The notes under the pieces are model-generated. The model did no database searches and was not told the origin of the DNA. It saw only the letters and a list, made by a program, of their open reading frames with translations. A stretch of DNA of 20,000 bases from IMG/VR virus record IMGVR_UViG_3300035698_029469, one strand, 5' to 3'. This document shows, piece after piece, positions 5,400 to 17,655 of this stretch. The DNA comes from an uncultured virus (IMG/VR IMGVR_UViG_3300035698_029469). Lineage: Duplodnaviria; Heunggongvirae; Uroviricota; Caudoviricetes. The first letter of the stretch is position 1, and the number at the start of each line of letters is the position of its first letter. The translations under genes were made by a program, and so were the position numbers.

Positions 5400-5753
5400 A
5401 TGAATAAAAGAACAAGATTAGTGAATCTTACACCGCATGAAATAACTATATATCGCGGAAGCAAGATAATCCAAATTATAGAGCCAAGCGGCCAAAAAGC
5501 CTTTATTACCACATCTTACAGAAAGTTGAGAACTGTTAACGGCATAGACGTTGTCGAAACAGAATGGGGGGAACCGAAAGGAATCCCGCCGCCGGCACCG
5601 AACACTTTTTATATTGTTTCGACGGTGGTGTTGCAGGGTAGCGACCGTGAGGATCTTATAGCGCCGGATACTGGTAAAACGGCTGTTAAAGCTAACGGTA
5701 AGATTATAGGAATAACCAGGTTTCAGGTGTGGGCTTGGGCACCTGGGAAATAA
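5400..5753 (+). CDS. NLTPH-motif protein, candidate Crn4-like ring nuclease / anti-CRISPR
   Basis: Motifs NLTPH, G.P.P, YIVS, R.DL.AP, G.IIG; 117 aa, beta-rich. The family assignment is from recall of the motif, not from a search. Confidence 0.55.
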   Translation: MNKRTRLVNLTPHEITIYRGSKIIQIIEPSGQKAFITTSYRKLRTVNGIDVVETEWGEPKGIPPPAPNTFYIVSTVVLQGSDREDLIAPDTGKTAVKANGKIIGITRFQVWAWAPGK

Positions 5754-5763
5754 AACCCAAACA

Positions 5764-5777
5764 TTCTTTATTTTTTC
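5764..5777 (+). terminator. oligo-T tract, candidate archaeal-type terminator of the accessory array
   Basis: TTCTTTATTTTTTC just after the last + strand gene, at the junction with the convergent tRNA cluster. Confidence 0.4.
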
Positions 5778-5782
5778 ATTAA

Positions 5783-5855
5783 TGCCCATAGTCGGTCTCG
5801 AACCGACGATCAACAGCTTAGGAAGCTGATGCCTTATCCACTAGACTATACGGGC
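5783..5855 (-). tRNA. trnR: tRNA-Arg(CCT)
   Basis: GCCCGTA-TA-GTCT-AGTGGATA-AGGC-A-TCAGC-TTCCTAA-GCTGT-TGATC-GTCGG-TTCGAGA-CCGAC-TATGGGC-A; complete cloverleaf, A20 Arg identity base, no encoded CCA. Confidence 0.92.
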
Positions 5856-5861
5856 TTAAAG

Positions 5862-5935
5862 TGCTCTTAGAGGGACTTGAACCCTCGCCGACCCGGTTAG
5901 AAGCCGGGCATTCTATCCAACTGAATTATAAGAGC
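5862..5935 (-). tRNA. trnR: tRNA-Arg(TCT)
   Basis: GCTCTTA-TA-ATTC-AGTTGGATA-GAAT-G-CCCGG-CTTCTAA-CCGGG-TCGGC-GAGGG-TTCAAGT-CCCTC-TAAGAGC-A; all stems fully paired. Confidence 0.95.
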
Positions 5936-5945
5936 TTGATTTGGA

Positions 5946-6018
5946 AGCCCACGGTCGGACTTGAACCGACAATTACGGATTCCGAAGACCCGAGCCTTAT
6001 CCTTTTGGCCACGTGGGC
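5946..6018 (-). tRNA. trnR: tRNA-Arg(TCG)
   Basis: GCCCACG-TG-GCCA-AAAGGATA-AGGC-T-CGGGT-CTTCGGA-ATCCG-TAATT-GTCGG-TTCAAGT-CCGAC-CGTGGGC-T, followed by TCCA. Confidence 0.9.
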
Positions 6019-6024
6019 TTATGA

Positions 6025-6110
6025 TGGTGGGCGGGAGCGGATTCGAACCGCTGTCTCCTCAGTAGTTTCCTAGGACTGACTTGAGGCGTCTGCCTCTAAC
6101 CTACCCGCTC
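6025..6110 (-). ncRNA. tRNA-like RNA A (86 nt) with a 20-nt anticodon loop; possibly an intron-containing tRNA of undetermined identity
   Basis: Acceptor GAGCGGG/CCCGCCC plus ACCA; T arm AGCGG-TTCGAAT-CCGCT; stem CCTCA/TGAGG encloses AGTCAGTCCTAGGAAACTAC. Confidence 0.75.
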
Positions 6111-6122
6111 ATAGACCTGGAT

Positions 6123-6250
6123 TGGTGGTAACTGCCGGATTTAAACCGACGTCATCGGGCGGCTTACACGTTCGAGCGCAATTAACGCTCCTCCCGACCC
6201 ATTGCGGGATGTGCCCTGTCCCTATGTAATCTCTGCTATACTAGGTTACC
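6123..6250 (-). ncRNA. tRNA-like RNA B (128 nt) with a multi-hairpin domain in place of the anticodon arm
   Basis: Acceptor GGTAACC/AGTTACC plus ACCA; T arm GTCGG-TTTAAAT-CCGGC; internal stems GGGC/GCCC, ACAT/GTGT, TCCCG/CGGGA and GAGCG/CGCTC. Confidence 0.7.
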
Positions 6251-6415
6251 ATTGTATTTTTTTAACAGTGTATTGATTCTTAAACAGCAGGACTCGATTC
6301 TATCATCCATATATTTCGTTTCGGCACGAGAACACTTTATGCCGTATATTATAACTAAGATAGGCCCCACTATAGCTATTATAATGCACAAAACATCGAT
6401 GTATAATGGTATCAT
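6236..6415 (-). CDS. 59-aa single-TM micro-protein inside the tRNA cluster, not in the ORF track
   Basis: AAAGGAGA SD then ATG; MIPLYIDVLCIIIAIVGPILVIIYGIKCSRAETKYMDDRIESCCLRINTLLKKYNGNLV*. Confidence 0.7.
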   Translation of the reverse strand: MIPLYIDVLCIIIAIVGPILVIIYGIKCSRAETKYMDDRIESCCLRINTLLKKYNGNLV

Positions 6416-6452
6416 TGTGTTTTCTCCTTTCTATTTTATGCTACGTCGAAAT

Positions 6453-6613
6453 TGGTGGCAACCGGTGGATTCGAACCACCGTTGATTGGATATCTCCTTA
6501 CTCTGTTTATTCGCGCGCGCCACATAAGCTGAGGGGATCATGAGTCCAACGTCTCAGAGGGCTTCTTACCCGGTTACCCGAGCGGTATGCCAACCTGGCT
6601 AGACTAGATTGCC
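6453..6613 (-). tRNA. tRNA(CAT), elongator Met or Ile2, with two introns (37/38 at 6492-6538; D-loop at about 6556-6591)
   Basis: Removing the 47-nt and 36-nt inserts gives GGCAATC-TA-GTCT-AGCCAGGTTG-AGAC-G-TTGGA-CTCATGA-TCCAA-TCAAC-GGTGG-TTCGAAT-CCACC-GGTTGCC-A-CCA (78 nt). Confidence 0.85.
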
Positions 6614-6620
6614 TTTAATT

Positions 6621-6697
6621 TGGTGTCAGCGAGTGGAGTTTAACCACTGCAGCCCGGGCAGACTGTACGCCTTGCTTTTGCACTCAGCCACACTGAC
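6621..6697 (-). ncRNA. tRNA-like RNA C (77 nt) with an enlarged D loop, a shifted anticodon arm and essentially no variable loop
   Basis: Acceptor GTCAGTG/CGCTGAC plus ACCA; T arm AGTGG-TTAAACT-CCACT; hairpin CAGTC-TGCCCG-GGCTG. Confidence 0.7.
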
Positions 6698-6706
6698 AAC
6701 AGTTAA

Positions 6707-6790
6707 CGTCTGTTCCCGCCTCACGGCAAGACGAGACGGATTACCCTTTTTTAATCTCCAACGGTAATCTGGAGAAGCCGCTTTCGGGGC
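6707..6790 (-). ncRNA. structured RNA: GAAA hairpin, H-type pseudoknot and GUGA-capped hairpin
   Basis: TCTCCA/TGGAGA stem whose loop GATTACC is complementary to downstream GGTAATC across TTAAAAAAG; CGTCT/AGACG and CTTGCC-GTGA-GGCGGG. GNRA loops and G-U pairs fit only the minus strand. Confidence 0.65.
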
Positions 6791-6811
6791 GCGCACCATA
6801 CCCTGTTTTCC

Positions 6812-6837
6812 CTTTAAAACGTCTATTTTTAAAGCTT
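6812..6837 (-). promoter_or_regulatory. candidate TATA-box promoter of the RNA operon
   Basis: AAGCTTTAAAAA (6837-6826) and TTTTAAAG (6819-6812) lie about 20-40 nt upstream of the structured RNA. Confidence 0.45.
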
Positions 6838-6893
6838 AGAGTGGTAATGCCTTTAAGTAGATCCTTCTATCTCTTATCTGTGCGGCCGGGTAT

Positions 6894-8729
6894 TTAATAA
6901 TCCCAAGTAGTTGCAACCGCAAAGCCCGAAAAATCATCATAATCATCATTTGTGAAATTTATAACTTTGGGTTCTTGTTGTGCTCTACCGCCGGGTGAGT
7001 TGCCCTGTCTATAAGCTATAGCGGCAACCGGTTCATGTCCCGGGCTATCGTCCCGCATTTGTCTTAATGCCCAAGCTCCCATAGCCAGGGTAATAACCCG
7101 ATCATCACGGCCGTTTTTGGGATATTTAATATTGCCGCTTTCCGTGAATTCTTGTCGGAATTCGCGCAGCTCGTTTTCGAGGGAATAGAGTTCATGATCT
7201 ATAGTTCCTTTAGTCTTTCGATGTTCGGGATTATAATAGGGAATTCGGATTTCGTTATTCTCGAAGAGGTGCTTGAGATTAGAAATAACCAGCGGTTTAT
7301 TTTGAGCTGTAAAGTTTAGGCCAAGATCGCCTTTGGTGCGCCAAAAATGCGGAGGTTCATATCCAAACATTTGATCGCAGGCTTTTTTAAGGCCTTTCAC
7401 AAATATTCGGCCGACATTTTTACCGTCAAATACTACGGCCGTCGGACGGAAAGCTTCAATTAATCTTAAAGCTTGGGGTAACAATACTTCTTCGTAGTCA
7501 GCATGTAGATAACTTTCCTGCCAAACAAGCGAAGTGCATTCTCTTACGATCATTGTCCCATCTTTATCGCTGTTTACGATTGTCGGGCGTTTTGTTATAA
7601 ATGAAAATACCGTTCGATCGTGGGCTTGACCAAGGTCCCCGGCAAATACAAGAGGATATTTTCCTTTTGGTTCGGGGTCTAAAAATGGATAGCCGGCCGA
7701 TTTAGTCTCGGCTTCTTTTGTAAAATGCGAGACCGAATCCAATAATTGATCTGCAATAAAAACTCCGCCTTTTGCCGGCTCTTGAATTAAATCTTTACCG
7801 TAGAGGCCGGCAATTGCTCTAACAGAATCGGTTTCGATAAATGGATTAACAATGGGGACCCAACCGTTTACATCGCGGGCACGGAGAATATATTCGTTCT
7901 TAAATACGCTATCGGCATCGGAAACAAATTCTCCTTGAAGTTCTTCTTTAATCGAACGCGGACTGATTCTGTGATCTTCCATTTTTTGAAGAAATAATTC
8001 TGTATTCATCCACGGTACTGCCCATTTACATTGATTTTCGATTAAATTACCGTGGTTATCGAAGAAGAGATCATCTTTAATATTATATTTTTTATAGTAA
8101 TTTTCGTTGGTTTCGCTTATCCATTGCTCATAAAACCAGCCGCTCATTCCGAACGGTGTAGAACCTGCAATAACACGGGAAAAATCAAAATTAGGTCTTA
8201 TTGTTGGTAAAACGGGACCAACAATGAATTCCGTGGGTAATTGTGCAACTTCATCTATAAAACCAATTTCAAAACTCCGGCCACGGCAAGCGTCGCTTAC
8301 AGGAAAAGCCCAAATGTCAGAACGATTTTTAAGTTTAAAATGATCTTTGGCAATATTTTTTGGAACTAAAGTATGAAAATCGCTGTTCCTGATAAATTGT
8401 TCAATTATTCCGACTGATCTTGTTGCTTCATTATAACCCACCGAAAAATAGCCGATTAAAATACCTGGCCGTGTGATCATAAGAGCCGCTGCTATCACGT
8501 GCATAAGTGTAGATTTAGCATAACCTCTGGGAGCTTTTAAAAGTAATGTTCTTTTGCCTTCATAGACACCATCTTCAGGAGAACCGTATTGAAAGAGCCG
8601 ACAAGCTTCTTTTTGCCATTCGAGAAGTCTAAATGGCCGAAGTCCTTTTTCTTCTTTAAAGAAAGTTTCAATGAAGGTTACGAGATCCCGCATTAGATGA
8701 AGGTCTGCCATGCTAACGTTTATTCTCAT
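6894..8729 (-). CDS. terL: terminase large subunit
   Basis: Adenine-binding WQ, Walker A APRGYAKST, Walker B GFIDEVA, coupling motif GSTP, RNase H-like AGDLG..DRT and DDRVITLAM. Confidence 0.95.
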   Translation of the reverse strand: MRINVSMADLHLMRDLVTFIETFFKEEKGLRPFRLLEWQKEACRLFQYGSPEDGVYEGKRTLLLKAPRGYAKSTLMHVIAAALMITRPGILIGYFSVGYNEATRSVGIIEQFIRNSDFHTLVPKNIAKDHFKLKNRSDIWAFPVSDACRGRSFEIGFIDEVAQLPTEFIVGPVLPTIRPNFDFSRVIAGSTPFGMSGWFYEQWISETNENYYKKYNIKDDLFFDNHGNLIENQCKWAVPWMNTELFLQKMEDHRISPRSIKEELQGEFVSDADSVFKNEYILRARDVNGWVPIVNPFIETDSVRAIAGLYGKDLIQEPAKGGVFIADQLLDSVSHFTKEAETKSAGYPFLDPEPKGKYPLVFAGDLGQAHDRTVFSFITKRPTIVNSDKDGTMIVRECTSLVWQESYLHADYEEVLLPQALRLIEAFRPTAVVFDGKNVGRIFVKGLKKACDQMFGYEPPHFWRTKGDLGLNFTAQNKPLVISNLKHLFENNEIRIPYYNPEHRKTKGTIDHELYSLENELREFRQEFTESGNIKYPKNGRDDRVITLAMGAWALRQMRDDSPGHEPVAAIAYRQGNSPGGRAQQEPKVINFTNDDYDDFSGFAVATTWDY

Positions 8730-8733
8730 TTAA

Positions 8734-9069
8734 TCAATCTTCCAGTTCTTCGCCGATAATAACACAGCCTGCACACCCGTGAGTATCCCAAATTTTCATG
8801 TTAAATTCTCGATTATTTCCGCCTTTAAATCTACAATGTTCTCCAGTGTAAGCACAACCTAAACAACGCTCAGTTTGTCCGTTTTCGCCGTTCCGTTCCT
8901 TCATTTGTTCACCGACATTGTAGTGTTCCTTTCCCCAATCTTCATCAACCGTATTGCACAGATGGCAATAGCCGGCAAACATCCGCTTGCCTTCGTCAAA
9001 ACAATCGCAATTTGGACACATACAATCACCACAAGCTTTACACCATTGTTTTCCGCATTCTATATCCAT
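8734..9069 (-). CDS. Cys-rich putative Zn-binding protein, paralog 2
   Basis: MDIECGKQWCKACGDCMCPNC...YCHLC...CLGC...C...CAGC. Confidence 0.8.
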   Translation of the reverse strand: MDIECGKQWCKACGDCMCPNCDCFDEGKRMFAGYCHLCNTVDEDWGKEHYNVGEQMKERNGENGQTERCLGCAYTGEHCRFKGGNNREFNMKIWDTHGCAGCVIIGEELED

Positions 9070-9072
9070 CAA

Positions 9073-9249
9073 TTATGACTCCCATCGATTCTTAGTTCCA
9101 TCTAAGTAACCAGGATATTCTAATTCCATTTCTTGGCAAAAGTCACAATAATGATGTGAATTTGATGATTTTACTCGAATCCAATTACATTCTTTACATA
9201 TACAATCACCACAACCCCAACAGAATAGTTTTCCGCATTCTATATCCAT
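9073..9249 (-). CDS. 58-aa Cys-rich putative Zn-binding protein, paralog 1, not in the ORF track
   Basis: AGGAG SD; MDIECGKLFCWGCGDCICKECNWIRVKSSNSHHYCDFCQEMELEYPGYLDGTKNRWES*; DNA repeat 9021-9069 vs 9201-9249. Confidence 0.8.
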   Translation of the reverse strand: MDIECGKLFCWGCGDCICKECNWIRVKSSNSHHYCDFCQEMELEYPGYLDGTKNRWES

Positions 9250-9347
9250 TTTTAATTGATCTCCTGAATTATATAGTAAAAATGGTAAATATAAATTTAT
9301 TTGGATTTTGGAAAGATTTTAAATATTCGGGCGCGTAGATTTAAAGT
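9250..9347. promoter_or_regulatory. divergent archaeal-type promoter region
   Basis: + strand GAAAGAT-TTTAAATA (9311-9325) about 30 nt before ATG 9348 with no SD, consistent with a leaderless transcript; - strand AAATAAA-TTTATATT (9302-9288) about 30 nt before the SD of 9249. Confidence 0.6.
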
Positions 9348-16665: not shown

Positions 16666-17655
16666 ATGGCAACTTATGCACAGGATATACCTAATATTCT
16701 ACGAAGAAAATATATGCTCGGCCGATTTATTGAGCAAAAAAATCACCTTTTTGTCGGAGATTATATATTCGGCCAGCTTACTACGGAAGATCCAACGTTC
16801 CTTTATTTAGAGGAACGTCGAGGATATAGAATGACGCCTGAAACCGGTAGAAATACCGAAGGCGATGTTCTCAACGACATTTATGCTCAGCATGTTGGTC
16901 GAACTGTAAGCTATAAAGAGCGAATGCAAATTGACACACGAGTTAAGAAACCGTATGTGCTTATTGATCTTGCAGAACGACGAATGAAAAGTCTTACGAT
17001 TAATATGGCCCGACGAATGGAGTTTCTTAAGGTAAATGCACTGGCAAACGGTTATTTAAGTGCTGACGGAAACGAAAGCCTTTATTGGATCGATTTTGAT
17101 GATACAGCTGCGTTTGTCGGACAGAATTGGGTTGATGGAACCGGAAATGTTGATATTCGGGGAAATCTGGCATTTGCAAAAGCAAGAATGCTTGAAAACG
17201 CATTTGTCGCTCCGGATACGGTAATTTGTTCGCCAAAAGTTTGGGAATCTGTTGAAAGACAGTTAGTTTGGGAATACGGTAATTCCGGACCTTTTGGACA
17301 AAGTATGCTTCGGGACGGTCGATTACCAGACGGTGCAACCGAGCCTGATAGAAGTGCTTACCGTGGAAATTGGTATGACCTTGATTGGTTTGTTACAAAC
17401 GGGTATTATCAATCTGATAACGATAATATTTTCTCAAGTCTCACTAAAATGGTGGATAGACACGTTTATGTATTTAAAAGAGGAAATGATCTCGGCGGAC
17501 TCTACATGATGAAAGATACCGATATGATTAAAACGAGAGTTCCGGACCAAGGATTTACAAATCTGTATGAGGTTCAGCTTGAGTTTGAATGCACCCCGGT
17601 AATATTTCATCCGGAATACATATTTACATTTTTGAATGTAGAAACGGCTCCGTGA
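16666..17655 (+). CDS. major capsid protein (HK97 fold, lambda gpE-like)
   Basis: 329 aa; long helix RRMEFLKVNALANG, W....DI...L and PDTVICSPKVWESV; strong SD GGAGG; canonical gene position. Confidence 0.88.
   Translation: MATYAQDIPNILRRKYMLGRFIEQKNHLFVGDYIFGQLTTEDPTFLYLEERRGYRMTPETGRNTEGDVLNDIYAQHVGRTVSYKERMQIDTRVKKPYVLIDLAERRMKSLTINMARRMEFLKVNALANGYLSADGNESLYWIDFDDTAAFVGQNWVDGTGNVDIRGNLAFAKARMLENAFVAPDTVICSPKVWESVERQLVWEYGNSGPFGQSMLRDGRLPDGATEPDRSAYRGNWYDLDWFVTNGYYQSDNDNIFSSLTKMVDRHVYVFKRGNDLGGLYMMKDTDMIKTRVPDQGFTNLYEVQLEFECTPVIFHPEYIFTFLNVETAP

What the first reader, a model, noticed from the sequence alone, without database searches (positions are those of the whole stretch)
5783..6837. 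Viral RNA operon combining tRNA mimics, a multi-intron tRNA, an Arg tRNA trio, a pseudoknot RNA and a membrane micro-protein
Seen: one minus-strand unit of about 1 kb. It runs from a TATA-like promoter through a pseudoknot RNA, tRNA-like C, a two-intron tRNA(CAT), a 59-aa TM ORF, tRNA-like B and tRNA-like A to three tRNA-Arg genes. All four atypical RNAs end in genome-encoded ACCA and keep the acceptor stem and T arm, while their anticodon and D domains differ radically. Two of the canonical tRNAs lack CCA. Established: the acceptor/T half is the part recognised by RNase P, RNase Z, the CCA-adding enzyme and EF-1A, and tRNA mimics such as tmRNA and YrlA Y RNAs keep it. Inference: random decay should not spare the top half three times, so these may be a functional family of tRNA-scaffolded RNAs. 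They could be decoys for anticodon nucleases or the splicing endonuclease, ribosome-rescue RNAs, or carriers releasing small intron RNAs.
Basis: partly seen in the sequence, partly recalled or inferred. Interest (0 to 1): 0.88.

Follow-up and report, generated by a model that had tools for sequence, protein, structure and literature searches.

The report
Phage tRNA array with four tRNA look-alikes
A salt-lake phage carries three normal arginine tRNA genes preceded by four tRNA-shaped genes that keep the tRNA's upper half and CCA end but have no usable anticodon loop, so they are probably non-decoding look-alikes like phage T4's unexplained RNA C.

Summary
The core observation holds. On the minus strand, 5783-6697, three canonical tRNA-Arg genes (Rfam 58-68 bits) follow four tRNA-derived elements. 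Each of the four has a 6-7 bp acceptor stem, a 5-bp T arm with an intact T-loop core, A73 and an encoded CCA. Searched alone, C and A pass Rfam's tRNA threshold (33.7 and 33.0 bits), CAT does not (25.4), and B gives nothing. None has a closable 7-nt U33/R37 anticodon loop.

The finer claims do not hold:
- No bulge-helix-bulge motif sits at any insert boundary, so "two-intron tRNA(CAT)" is unsupported.
- The pseudoknot is only marginally above chance.
- No promoter-like site was found at the proposed TATA site.
- Gene starts look bacterial, not archaeal.

I found no relative carrying the cluster and no listed RNA run, so covariation and expression remain untested.

My best reading (about 0.5) is processed, non-decoding tRNA look-alikes of the T4 RNAC/RNAD kind. 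Decaying tRNA duplicates (about 0.25) are the main rival. An rnaD-family covariance model does not match (3.6 bits).

This scan has noted similar phage RNAs on other DNA. The adjacent gene is a Crn4b-like ring nuclease, a candidate anti-CRISPR.

The parts
5783..5855 (-). tRNA-Arg(CCT); no encoded CCA
   Evidence: ARAGORN. Rfam RF00005 60.0 bits. Folding z -3.10.
5861..5935 (-). tRNA-Arg(TCT); no encoded CCA
   Evidence: ARAGORN. Rfam 68.3 bits. Folding z -2.77.
5942..6019 (-). tRNA-Arg(TCG). It ends ...GGGC-T-TCCA, and ARAGORN draws an 8-bp acceptor stem with T as discriminator plus CCA.
   Evidence: ARAGORN. Rfam 58.4 bits over 5946-6018.
6025..6110 (-). tRNA look-alike A (86 nt). Its acceptor stem has 6/7 pairs (A2.C71 mismatch), followed by U8 A9. 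It has a D arm with GG, a canonical T arm (TTCGAAT), A73 and CCA. The anticodon stem CCUCA/UGAGG encloses 20 nt instead of 7.
   Evidence: Rfam tRNA 33.0 bits when searched alone, against a threshold of 29. ARAGORN at default calls it Leu(CAA) with the anticodon at position 28. No contiguous 13-nt deletion from the 20-nt loop leaves U33 plus a purine at 37. G+C 59.3%. Folding z -1.84.
6123..6250 (-). tRNA look-alike B (128 nt). Its acceptor stem has 6/7 pairs (C7.A66 mismatch), followed by U8 A9. The T arm is GTCGG-TTTAAAT-CCGGC, without C56, then A73 and CCA. The 90-nt centre holds a perfect hairpin, GAGCG-TTAATTG-CGCTC. The 5' end overlaps the last 15 nt of the 59-aa ORF.
   Evidence: Top-half scans. 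No Rfam match at E<=10 when searched alone. ARAGORN calls it only at a lowered threshold or after excisions: 82 of 4139 variants, all Ile-AAT. The 3' end is 75% identical to CAT's over 32 nt. G+C 53.9%.
6236..6415 (-). 59-aa ORF with one N-terminal hydrophobic helix, lying between CAT and B
   Evidence: ORF list. SD AAAGGAG upstream. Translation and hydropathy. G+C 33.3%. No Pfam or PHROG match. I did not search for homologues.
6453..6613 (-). tRNA look-alike CAT (161 nt, or 126 nt from the alternative 5' end at 6578). It has a canonical T arm, A73 and CCA. The half-stem TTGGA and loop-like CTCATGA are separated from TCCAA by about 47-50 nt. The D region is extended into a rod capped by GTAA.
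   Evidence: Two 5' strands, 6613 and 6578, each pair 7/7 with the single 3' strand. Rfam tRNA 25.4 bits, below 29, over 6578-6456 with a 50-nt insert. The cloverleaf-constrained fold is -49.6 against an MFE of -50.4 kcal/mol, and neither shows a BHB. G+C 54.0%.
6621..6697 (-). tRNA look-alike C (77 nt). Its acceptor stem has 7/7 pairs. It has a D arm without GG, a T loop TTAAACT (A at position 56), A73 and CCA. The anticodon arm cannot be aligned.
   Evidence: Rfam tRNA 33.7 bits when searched alone, with 20 nt unaligned in place of the anticodon arm. ARAGORN calls it only at the 80% threshold, as Leu-CAG with loop TACAGTC. Folding z -0.53.
6700..6837 (-). Leader between TerL and element C. 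The part 6700-6800 is G+C-rich and holds the proposed pseudoknot (6775-6739).
   Evidence: G+C 53.5% for 6700-6800. Stems found, but only marginally above chance. No Rfam match. Folding z -0.81.
5400..5753 (+). Convergent neighbour gene: a Crn4b-like ring nuclease (candidate anti-CRISPR). This is context, not part of the RNA unit.
   Evidence: phrog_30542 at 7e-20. AF2 model pLDDT 90.6. Foldseek to 9r7b: E 2.3e-9, TM 0.75. Profile against the PDB sequence of Crn4b: 7.8e-14.
6894..8729 (-). Terminase large subunit, directly upstream on the same strand
   Evidence: phrog_2 at 2.3e-29. Pfam Terminase_6N weak.

Best explanation
This is the tRNA gene array of a tailed phage, probably of a bacterium.

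The three 3'-most genes are working arginine tRNAs. They read AGA/AGG and CGA/CGG.

The four upstream genes are tRNA-derived but cannot decode. Each keeps what RNase P, the 3'-end trimming enzymes and the CCA enzyme recognise: the acceptor stem stacked on the T arm, the T-loop core, A73 and an encoded CCA. Each has an expanded or scrambled anticodon domain.

My inference is that the array is transcribed as one or two precursors. One would start at the terminase-operon promoter near 9290. An internal promoter-like site at 6461-6433 may start a second. Each unit would then be cut at its 5' end by RNase P and trimmed to its CCA. The four odd units would persist as stable tRNA look-alikes of the same kind as phage T4's RNAC (species 1 RNA), whose role is still unknown.

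Their most likely job is to engage tRNA-recognising proteins without entering translation, as sponges or decoys, or as processing punctuation around the small ORF.

Shown here: tRNA descent, the intact top halves, the absence of a usable anticodon loop, the G+C island and the array layout. Inferred: transcription, processing, stability and any function.
For: 1. Descent from tRNA. C scores 33.7 bits and A 33.0 bits on Rfam tRNA over the full model, and CAT scores 25.4 bits. All seven units begin with a 7-mer followed by U8 and R9.
2. Top-half integrity. 46 of 48 acceptor and T-stem pairs are formed, and T54, T55, A58 and G53-C61 are present in 4 of 4. The strict scanner finds only the 7 array units in 20 kb on both strands.
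3. No decoding loop. A has 20 nt between CCUCA and UGAGG, and no 13-nt deletion restores U33/R37. In CAT the stem halves are 50 nt apart. C's anticodon arm is unalignable, with best loop TACAGTC (A33, T37). B has no Rfam hit.
4. No BHB motif lies at the insert boundaries, and gene starts are bacterial in style. A known splicing route is therefore unlikely.
5. All four elements, their inserts included, are 52-59% G+C in a 37.7% genome, while the embedded ORF is 33%.
6. Units are packed 5-12 nt apart, like the canonical tRNAs.
7. B and CAT are paralogous at both ends: 75% over 32 nt at the 3' end and 10 of 12 at the 5' end. Between them, pairs 50:64, 51:63 and 3:70 differ on both sides yet still pair.
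8. Precedent. T4 rnaC (139 nt) lies after tRNA-Arg and rnaD, has the T arm CCGGG-TTCGAAT-CCCGG, and fails the Rfam tRNA model. Its role is stated as unknown in passages of PMC3014915 and PMC9697503.
9. Unrelated viral contigs L047/L048 and L052/L053 also carry tRNA-shaped genes next to canonical tRNAs that ARAGORN does not call.
10. The three Arg tRNAs cover 238 of 294 Arg codons in the window's ORFs.
Against: - There is no comparative evidence. The only other copies are 100% identical fragments, and no relative with the cluster was found.
- Whole-element folding is not better than shuffles: z is -1.84, -1.11, -0.89 and -0.53. T4 rnaD, a known stable RNA, is also only -0.83.
- The top halves are not flawless. 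There are two stem mismatches (A2.C71 in A, C7.A66 in B), each reachable by one G-to-A change, and C56 is lost in B and C. Early decay in an A+T-rich genome would look like this.
- The 6/7 acceptor matches of A and B are individually within chance. Each T arm has other 6/7 partners within 200 nt.
- B's 5' end lies 12 nt upstream of the ORF's stop codon. Cutting there would remove the stop, which sits awkwardly with a simple punctuation model.
- CAT is not a member of the T4 rnaD family: the covariance model gives 3.6 bits, E about 1.
Confidence: 0.5

Rival explanations
1. The four elements are decaying duplicates or recombination scars of tRNA genes, with no function of their own. They are tolerated because they sit in a transcribed array.
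For: - Two stem mismatches and two C56 losses are G/C-to-A/T changes.
- The anticodon domains are disrupted in four different ways, with no shared architecture.
- CAT has two nested 5' acceptor strands, which suggests rearrangement.
- Folding z-scores are unexceptional.
- No conservation could be shown.
Against: - About 450 nt of junk is unusual in a compact phage genome.
- G+C remains at 52-59% even in the inserts, against a 37.7% background.
- 46 of 48 top-half pairs and the T-loop core survive in all four, although the centres have diverged beyond alignment.
- All four keep ACCA, while two of the working tRNAs lack it.
- B and CAT differ by pair-preserving double changes.
Confidence: 0.25
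2. A and CAT, and perhaps B, are real decoding tRNAs. Their insertions would be removed after transcription, either by an archaeal-type splicing endonuclease, or by the unknown route implied for the 'enigmatic introns' of Lak megaphage tRNAs.
For: - The inserts of A (13 extra nt) and CAT (about 47-50 nt) lie in the anticodon loop, where tRNA introns usually sit.
- Joining CTCATG to A-TCCAA would give a 7-nt loop, CTCATGA, on a 5-bp stem.
- ATA is a heavily used codon, 198 in the window's ORFs, so an Ile2-type CAU tRNA would be useful.
- Phage tRNAs with unexplained inserts are in print (PMC6784885, passages read).
Against: - None of the 37 strict BHB motifs in 6860-5770 lies at these boundaries, and they occur equally inside the canonical tRNAs and the ORF.
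- The constrained fold shows a 7-nt/4-nt internal loop, not a BHB.
- The spliced CAT loop would carry G37, which is atypical for a CAU anticodon (recalled knowledge).
- For A, no contiguous deletion gives U33/R37.
- Gene starts look bacterial.
- ARAGORN with introns never calls Met(CAT).
- CAT also needs a second, D-region excision if its 5' end is at 6613.
Confidence: 0.1
3. The T-arm, acceptor and CCA segments are attachment-site (attP-like) copies of host tRNA 3' ends, used for integration. They are not RNA genes.
For: Phage attP sites often copy tRNA 3' ends (recalled knowledge). An earlier scan note describes such leftover halves elsewhere.
Against: - All four have matching 5' strands followed by U8/R9 and D-arm-like sequence, and two pass the full-length tRNA model.
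- They lie in tandem, on one strand, within a tRNA array.
- No integrase was found in the window.
Confidence: 0.03

Closest known systems
Bacteriophage T4 RNAC (species 1 RNA, rnaC, 139 nt) and RNAD (species 2, rnaD, 119 nt)
   Same: - They are small RNA genes inside a phage tRNA cluster, on the tRNA strand, a few nt from tRNA-Arg.
- rnaC has a canonical T arm and long hairpins where the D and anticodon arms would be, and it is not recognised as a tRNA by Rfam.
- B (128 nt) and CAT (126 or 161 nt) are of similar size.
- Their role is unknown (PMC3014915 and PMC9697503, passages).
   Different: - No homology was shown. The rnaD-family covariance model gives CAT 3.6 bits, E about 1, although a local alignment matches 32 of 47 positions.
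- Similarity of A to rnaC is mostly the universal T loop.
- T4 rnaC's terminal stem is poorer, 5/7 by my reading, and its CCA is not encoded.
- Here there are four different look-alikes, two of them of normal tRNA length.
Canonical tRNA (Rfam RF00005)
   Same: Acceptor stem, U8, T arm, discriminator base and CCA are present. C and A exceed the gathering score when searched alone.
   Different: - None has a 7-nt anticodon loop with U33 and a purine at 37.
- B and C lack both G18G19 and C56.
- CAT and B are 50-90 nt too long.
- Scores are about half those of the neighbouring Arg tRNAs.
'Enigmatic' introns in tRNA genes of Lak megaphages (Devoto et al. 2019, PMC6784885)
   Same: These are phage tRNA genes with unexplained inserted sequence that bacterial tRNA callers miss (passages read).
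   Different: - In the Lak cases, eukaryote-mode prediction recovers a typed tRNA after removal of the insert, and the insert is conserved across cohorts.
- Here, removal does not give a canonical loop for A, and no relatives exist to show conservation.
- I did not read that paper's supplementary tables.
tRNA-like domain of tmRNA; YrlA (Y RNA-like)
   Same: Acceptor/T-arm mimicry with a CCA end around a large non-tRNA body.
   Different: - ARAGORN calls no tmRNA at default settings, and Rfam reports none at gathering score.
- No G3:U70 pair is present in any of the four acceptor stems.
- The YrlA model scores 17.8 bits against a threshold of 69, and that hit spans two canonical tRNAs.
Allo-tRNAs and other non-canonical cloverleaf tRNAs (Mukai et al. 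2017, PMC5389517)
   Same: Unusual tRNA architectures found in bacteria and their phages, some proposed to act as regulatory non-coding RNAs (abstract read).
   Different: Those have 8/4 or 9/3 acceptor/T branches and intact anticodon loops. The four elements here have 7/5 branches and no usable anticodon loop. Only Arg-TCG has a possible 8-bp acceptor stem.

Membership tests
Canonical tRNA (RF00005) | Covariance-model score at or above the gathering score (29 bits) | tested here: inconclusive
   C scores 33.7 and A 33.0, so both meet it. CAT scores 25.4 and does not. B has no hit at E<=10. None was reported when the whole window or a 1.7-kb stretch was scanned.
Canonical tRNA (RF00005) | A 7-nt anticodon loop (U33, purine 37) closed by a 5-bp stem | tested here: not met
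   A has a 20-nt loop. In CAT the stem halves are 50 nt apart. C's arm is unaligned, and its best loop, TACAGTC, has A33 and T37. B's hairpin loop, TTAATTG, has T37 and no surrounding cloverleaf.
Canonical tRNA (RF00005) | Elbow contacts G18G19 with U55C56 | tested here: inconclusive
   A and CAT have TTCGAAT T loops and GG in the D region. B (TTTAAAT) and C (TTAAACT) lack C56, and their D loops lack GG.
Archaeal intron-bearing tRNA | A bulge-helix-bulge motif (3-nt bulges, 4-bp central helix) at the exon-intron junctions | tested here: not met
   The strict scan found 37 motifs in 6860-5770. None lies at the insert boundaries of CAT, A or B. The cloverleaf-constrained fold of CAT shows a 7/4 internal loop instead. 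I examined relaxed hBH/HBh' forms only by eye.
T4 RNAD (species 2 RNA) family | Match to a covariance model of the family, with its invariant 5' and 3' modules | tested here: not met
   Model R1, built from 9 T4-like phages, gives its best hit in CAT at 3.6 bits, E about 1.1, with filters off.
T4 RNAC (species 1 RNA) family | Sequence or structure homology to rnaC | not tested
   rnaC is nearly invariant in 7 of the 9 T4-likes fetched and absent in 2, so a useful model could not be built. Local similarity of A and CAT to rnaC is confined to the T loop and its neighbourhood.
T4 RNAC/RNAD kind (by analogy, not homology) | A non-decoding small RNA gene with tRNA-like features, in a phage tRNA cluster and on the tRNA strand | tested here: met
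   Layout of the window compared with the T4 layout. Accumulation as stable RNA is not testable with these tools.
tmRNA | A tRNA-Ala-like domain (G3:U70), a tag reading frame and pseudoknots | tested here: not met
   ARAGORN at default calls none. Rfam reports no tmRNA at gathering score. The best weak hit is tmRNA_permuted at 16.7 bits against 47. No G3:U70 pair is present.
Crn4 ring nuclease (neighbour gene 5400-5753) | The Crn4 fold, with conserved Thr and His on one loop and a catalytic Arg | tested here: inconclusive
   The fold and sequence match Crn4b, and T11 and H13 are present. At the position of the catalytic Arg (R103 of Crn4b), the window's protein has Lys while its 4 homologues have Arg. 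The residue roles come from PMC12830947 passages.

The most novel reading that the evidence does not exclude
The four CCA-ended, anticodon-disabled tRNA look-alikes are an anti-defence device. They would be processed like tRNAs and then act as decoys or sponges for host nucleases or sensors that recognise the tRNA body and attack the anticodon loop. They sit beside another candidate counter-defence gene, a Crn4b-like ring nuclease. More broadly, they would be one instance of a widespread, uncatalogued class of phage tRNA mimics, to which T4 RNAC belongs by analogy.
Probability: 0.12. Interest if true: 0.85.

Novelty: new variant of a known kind. Interest (0 to 1): 0.48.

Why it matters
The role of phage T4's tRNA-cluster stable RNAs is still stated as unknown in the two papers read here (2010 and 2022). 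Phage tRNA genes with unexplained inserts have since been reported in megaphages. Phage tRNAs are also now linked to evasion of tRNA-cleaving defence systems (PMC10264068 abstract; titles listed).

This array holds four structurally different anticodon-less tRNA look-alikes next to working tRNAs, with a ring-nuclease gene alongside. That makes it a compact test case for what the tRNA upper half does outside translation.

On its own the locus proves little, because it has no relatives and no expression data. Its value lies in being one more, unusually rich, example of a recurring pattern.

Tried and rejected
- Relatives of the phage.
  - TerL found nothing by word-indexed search. The exhaustive HMMER search gave a best hit of 43% identity, and the query itself is not in that library.
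  - Related-locus scans of viral, metagenome and genome contigs gave only two 100% identical fragments (L002, L003) and distant TerL loci without tRNAs.
- DNA patterns for C, for the shared 3' end of B and CAT, and for A found 0 matches in IMG/VR.
- blastn against INPHARED gave nothing at 1e-5. At E<=10 it gave only T-arm-sized hits.
- Sequencing runs. Six DNA holders are listed, all labelled salt lake metagenome, and no RNA holder is listed. Contigs of four runs laid on 5500-7100 were identical to the window where they covered it, with no variants or joints. This gives no evidence on expression.
- No whole genome is held for the window.
- I found no complementarity longer than 12 nt between the elements and the rest of the window.
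- PK-B similarity (score 25, p about 0.01 among 28 comparisons) is not significant after multiple testing.
- CAT-rnaD local similarity was rejected by the covariance model.
- The Crn4-like gene is flanked by tRNAs in only 4 of 79 IMG/VR loci, which come from one lineage, so I claim no association.
- The host could not be identified. The proteome is not acidic, and the TerL atlas and phage searches were uninformative.
- tRNAscan-SE, SPLITS and R-scape were not available.
Full report
**What the window is**

The window comes from a tailed virus.
- It encodes a terminase large subunit (6894-8729, minus strand; phrog_2 at 2.3e-29), a major head protein (16666-17655) and a neck protein.
- G+C is 37.7%.
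- Most ORFs are preceded by a strong Shine-Dalgarno site, typically GGAGGAATGAAAA-ATG.
- The predicted proteins are not acidic.
- A sigma-70-like site (TTTATA, 16 nt, TATAAT; 10 of 12 matches) at 9295-9268 sits upstream of an SD-bearing leader for the minus-strand operon that contains the terminase genes.

This architecture suggests a bacterial host, although the promoter scan as a whole is not above its shuffles (12 found against 8.6 +/- 3.4). The only public runs that hold the sequence are labelled salt lake metagenome.

The phage is isolated.
- It is absent from IMG/VR: a 28-nt exact pattern from it finds nothing.
- It is absent from INPHARED.
- Its TerL has no relative closer than 43% identity in 1.8 billion representatives.

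**The observation**

ARAGORN and Rfam agree on three tRNA-Arg genes: CCT at 5783-5855, TCT at 5861-5935 and TCG at 5942-6019, scoring 60.0, 68.3 and 58.4 bits.

Upstream on the same strand lie four more units. Each ends in a 5-bp T stem, a 7-nt T loop, a 7-nt acceptor 3' strand, then A and CCA. Each has a complementary 5' strand followed by U8 and a purine.

| Unit | Coordinates | Length | Acceptor pairs |
|---|---|---|---|
| C | 6697-6621 | 77 nt | 7/7 |
| CAT | 6613-6453 | 161 nt | 7/7 |
| B | 6250-6123 | 128 nt | 6/7 |
| A | 6110-6025 | 86 nt | 6/7 |

I then ran a stricter scanner. It requires T54, T55, A58, G53-C61, at least three G-C pairs in the T stem, an acceptor stem of at least 6/7, and U8. 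It returns exactly these seven units and nothing else on either strand of the 20 kb. The core observation is therefore real and far from chance.

One caveat applies. A 6/7 acceptor match alone is within chance, because each T arm has other 6/7 partners within 200 nt. The 5' ends of A and B rest on U8/R9 and the D-arm-like sequence that follows.

**Descent from tRNA**

The whole-window and 1.7-kb Rfam scans missed the four units. Searched alone, with laxer filters, the results were as follows.
- C scores 33.7 bits and A 33.0 bits on the tRNA model over its full length. The gathering score is 29.
- CAT scores 25.4 bits.
- B gives nothing at E<=10.

The alignments show where each unit departs from a tRNA.
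- In C, the acceptor, D and T arms align but the anticodon arm does not. Twenty nt are left unaligned.
- In A, everything aligns, including an anticodon stem CCUCA/UGAGG, but the loop is 20 nt.
- In CAT, Infernal uses an inner 5' strand at 6578 (GGTAACC, also 7/7). It places about 50 nt between CUCA and the returning stem strand UCCAA.

With the stem that Infernal aligns, no contiguous 13-nt deletion from A's loop leaves U33 and a purine at 37. B and C also lack C56 (T loops TTTAAAT and TTAAACT), and their D loops lack GG.

**Do they resolve into ordinary tRNAs?**

A strict bulge-helix-bulge scan of 6860-5770 found 37 motifs, scattered through the ORF and the canonical tRNAs alike. None lies at the boundaries of the inserts.

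I forced CAT into a cloverleaf with acceptor stem, D stem GTCT/AGAC, anticodon stem TTGGA/TCCAA and T stem. The result is -49.6 kcal/mol against an MFE of -50.4.
- The D arm becomes a long rod capped by GTAA.
- The anticodon arm becomes an irregular rod in which CTCATGA faces GATA across an internal loop.
- Neither shows a BHB.

ARAGORN with introns allowed and a lowered threshold calls B as Ser(CGA), CAT as Phe(AAA) and C as Leu(CAG). It never calls Met(CAT).

Exhaustive single excisions satisfied ARAGORN as follows.

| Unit | Variants accepted | Call |
|---|---|---|
| A | 316 of 1010 | mostly Leu |
| B | 82 of 4139 | all Ile-AAT |
| C | 1 of 569 | Leu-CAG |

This shows how lenient that caller is. 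It does not show that a clean tRNA is hidden inside.

Published "enigmatic" inserts in Lak megaphage tRNAs (PMC6784885, passages) keep an unknown removal route from being excluded.

**Other parts of the claim**

The pseudoknot. The stems exist (TCTCCA/TGGAGA and GATTACC/GGTAATC, 6775-6739), but there is no linker between the first two strands. Interleaved stems of equal total length occur in 28 of 1000 shuffles and in 29 of 284 native 140-nt tiles. The leader 6700-6800 is nevertheless G+C-rich, at 53.5%.

The promoter. No promoter-like site was reported at the proposed TATA position. The nearest candidates are the operon promoter near 9290 and a 10/12 site at 6461-6433, which overlaps CAT's 3' end just upstream of the small ORF.

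The small ORF. The 59-aa ORF has a good ribosome-binding site, a hydrophobic N-terminus and phage-like G+C of 33%. B's 5' end (6250) lies 12 nt upstream of its stop codon (6238-6236). Cutting B out would therefore remove the stop codon.

**Function or decay?**

Evidence for retention:
- 46 of 48 top-half pairs and the T-loop core are kept in all four units.
- All four keep ACCA, while two working tRNAs do not.
- G+C is 52-59% throughout, inserts included, in a 37.7% genome.
- B and CAT are paralogous at both ends. Between them, pairs 50:64, 51:63 and 3:70 differ on both sides yet still pair.

Evidence against:
- The two stem mismatches and the two C56 losses are the G/C-to-A/T changes that decay would bring.
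- Folding z-scores are ordinary: A -1.84, B -1.11, CAT -0.89, C -0.53, against -3.10, -2.77 and -1.95 for the Arg tRNAs.
- As a control, T4 rnaC gives -4.57 but T4 rnaD only -0.83. This measure therefore does not separate known stable RNAs from background.

No covariation test is possible. The only other copies, L002 and L003 and the contigs of four runs, are identical.

**Comparison with what is known**

T4 keeps rnaD (119 nt) and rnaC (139 nt) directly after tRNA-Arg.
- rnaC has a canonical T arm between long hairpins, and Rfam does not recognise it as a tRNA.
- Two papers state that the roles of RNAC and RNAD are unknown (PMC3014915 and PMC9697503, passages).

A local alignment of CAT with rnaD looked striking: 32 of 47 positions, with 0 of 200 shuffles as good. 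I built a covariance model from nine T4-like phages, in which rnaD has invariant 5' and 3' modules. It gives CAT only 3.6 bits, E about 1. I therefore claim analogy, not membership.

The tmRNA and YrlA models do not match.

This scan has noted many similar phage RNAs on other DNA, usually also comparing them with T4 RNAC. Those are unchecked notes. They agree with what I saw directly in two unrelated contig pairs:
- L047/L048 carry a 76-nt cloverleaf with an 11-nt loop.
- L052/L053 carry a 130-nt element with an 8-9 bp acceptor stem and a 64-nt insert.

**Context**

The convergent neighbour gene 5400-5753 is a Crn4b-like ring nuclease.
- The AF2 model has pLDDT 90.6.
- Foldseek to 9r7b gives E 2.3e-9 and TM 0.75.
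- A profile against the Crn4b sequence gives 7.8e-14.

Phage Crn4b homologues have been proposed as anti-CRISPRs (PMC12830947, passages). The window's copy keeps the Thr and His but has Lys where the catalytic Arg aligns. This places the RNA array next to a likely counter-defence gene. The Crn4-like gene is flanked by tRNAs in only 4 of 79 other loci, so I claim no general link.

The three Arg tRNAs match 238 of 294 Arg codons in the window's ORFs. This is ordinary codon supply.

**Verdict**

- Best reading: a phage tRNA array with three working tRNA-Arg genes and four tRNA-derived, non-decoding look-alikes. These are probably processed like tRNAs and kept as stable RNAs of the T4 RNAC kind, with job unknown (confidence about 0.5).
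- Main rival: decaying duplicates (about 0.25).
- Spliced genuine tRNAs are unlikely (about 0.1).
- Ranking: a new variant of a known but unexplained kind. It is moderately interesting and limited by the lack of relatives and RNA data.

Noticed in passing
window 5400-5753 (+): The gene convergent with the tRNA array is a Crn4b-like ring nuclease and a candidate anti-CRISPR. It keeps the conserved Thr and His but has Lys where the catalytic Arg of Crn4b aligns. Four homologues have Arg there.
   Followed up: partly
window 5942-6019 (-): tRNA-Arg(TCG) can form an 8-bp acceptor stem (an extra A-T pair), followed by T and an encoded CCA. Read as a 7-bp stem, its CCA is offset by one base.
   Followed up: no
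window 6236-6250 (-): The 5' end of tRNA look-alike B overlaps the last four sense codons and the stop codon of the 59-aa ORF. RNase P cutting at B would leave that mRNA without a stop codon.
   Followed up: no
window 6433-6461 (-): A sigma-70-like site (TTGCCA, 17 nt, TAAAAT; 10 of 12) overlaps the acceptor 3' strand and CCA of CAT, just upstream of the small ORF's ribosome-binding site.
   Followed up: no
window 6578 and 6613 (-): Two nested 5' acceptor strands, GGTAACC and GGCAATC, each pair 7/7 with CAT's single 3' strand. The inner one is identical to B's 5' strand, and from it CAT is 126 nt against B's 128 nt.
   Followed up: partly
L047 5547-5622 (identical in L048): An unrelated G+C-rich viral contig has a 76-nt perfect cloverleaf with an 11-nt 'anticodon' loop, right after tRNA-Tyr and next to a Crn4-like gene. 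ARAGORN does not call it.
   Followed up: partly
L052 6036-6166 (and L053): A 130-nt tRNA-like element follows tRNA-Ser. It has an 8-9 bp acceptor stem, a 4-5 bp T stem and a 64-nt insert, and scores 22.8 bits on the tRNA-Sec model. A weak skipping-rope RNA match follows it (22.1 bits against a threshold of 36.7).
   Followed up: no
L018 3054-3172 and L098-L105: T4 rnaD is found in 735 phage records. Its first 50 or so nt and last 25 or so nt are invariant across four genera, while the middle hairpin varies. rnaC is nearly invariant in 7 of the 9 phages fetched and missing in VR20 and JS98.
   Followed up: partly
window 9016-9069 and 9196-9249: Two 54-nt stretches 180 nt apart are 85% identical. 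They lie within the two small ORFs upstream of the terminase genes.
   Followed up: no
window 6626-6799 (-): A 57-aa ORF with a weak ribosome-binding site runs through the G+C-rich leader and element C. It is probably not coding.
   Followed up: no
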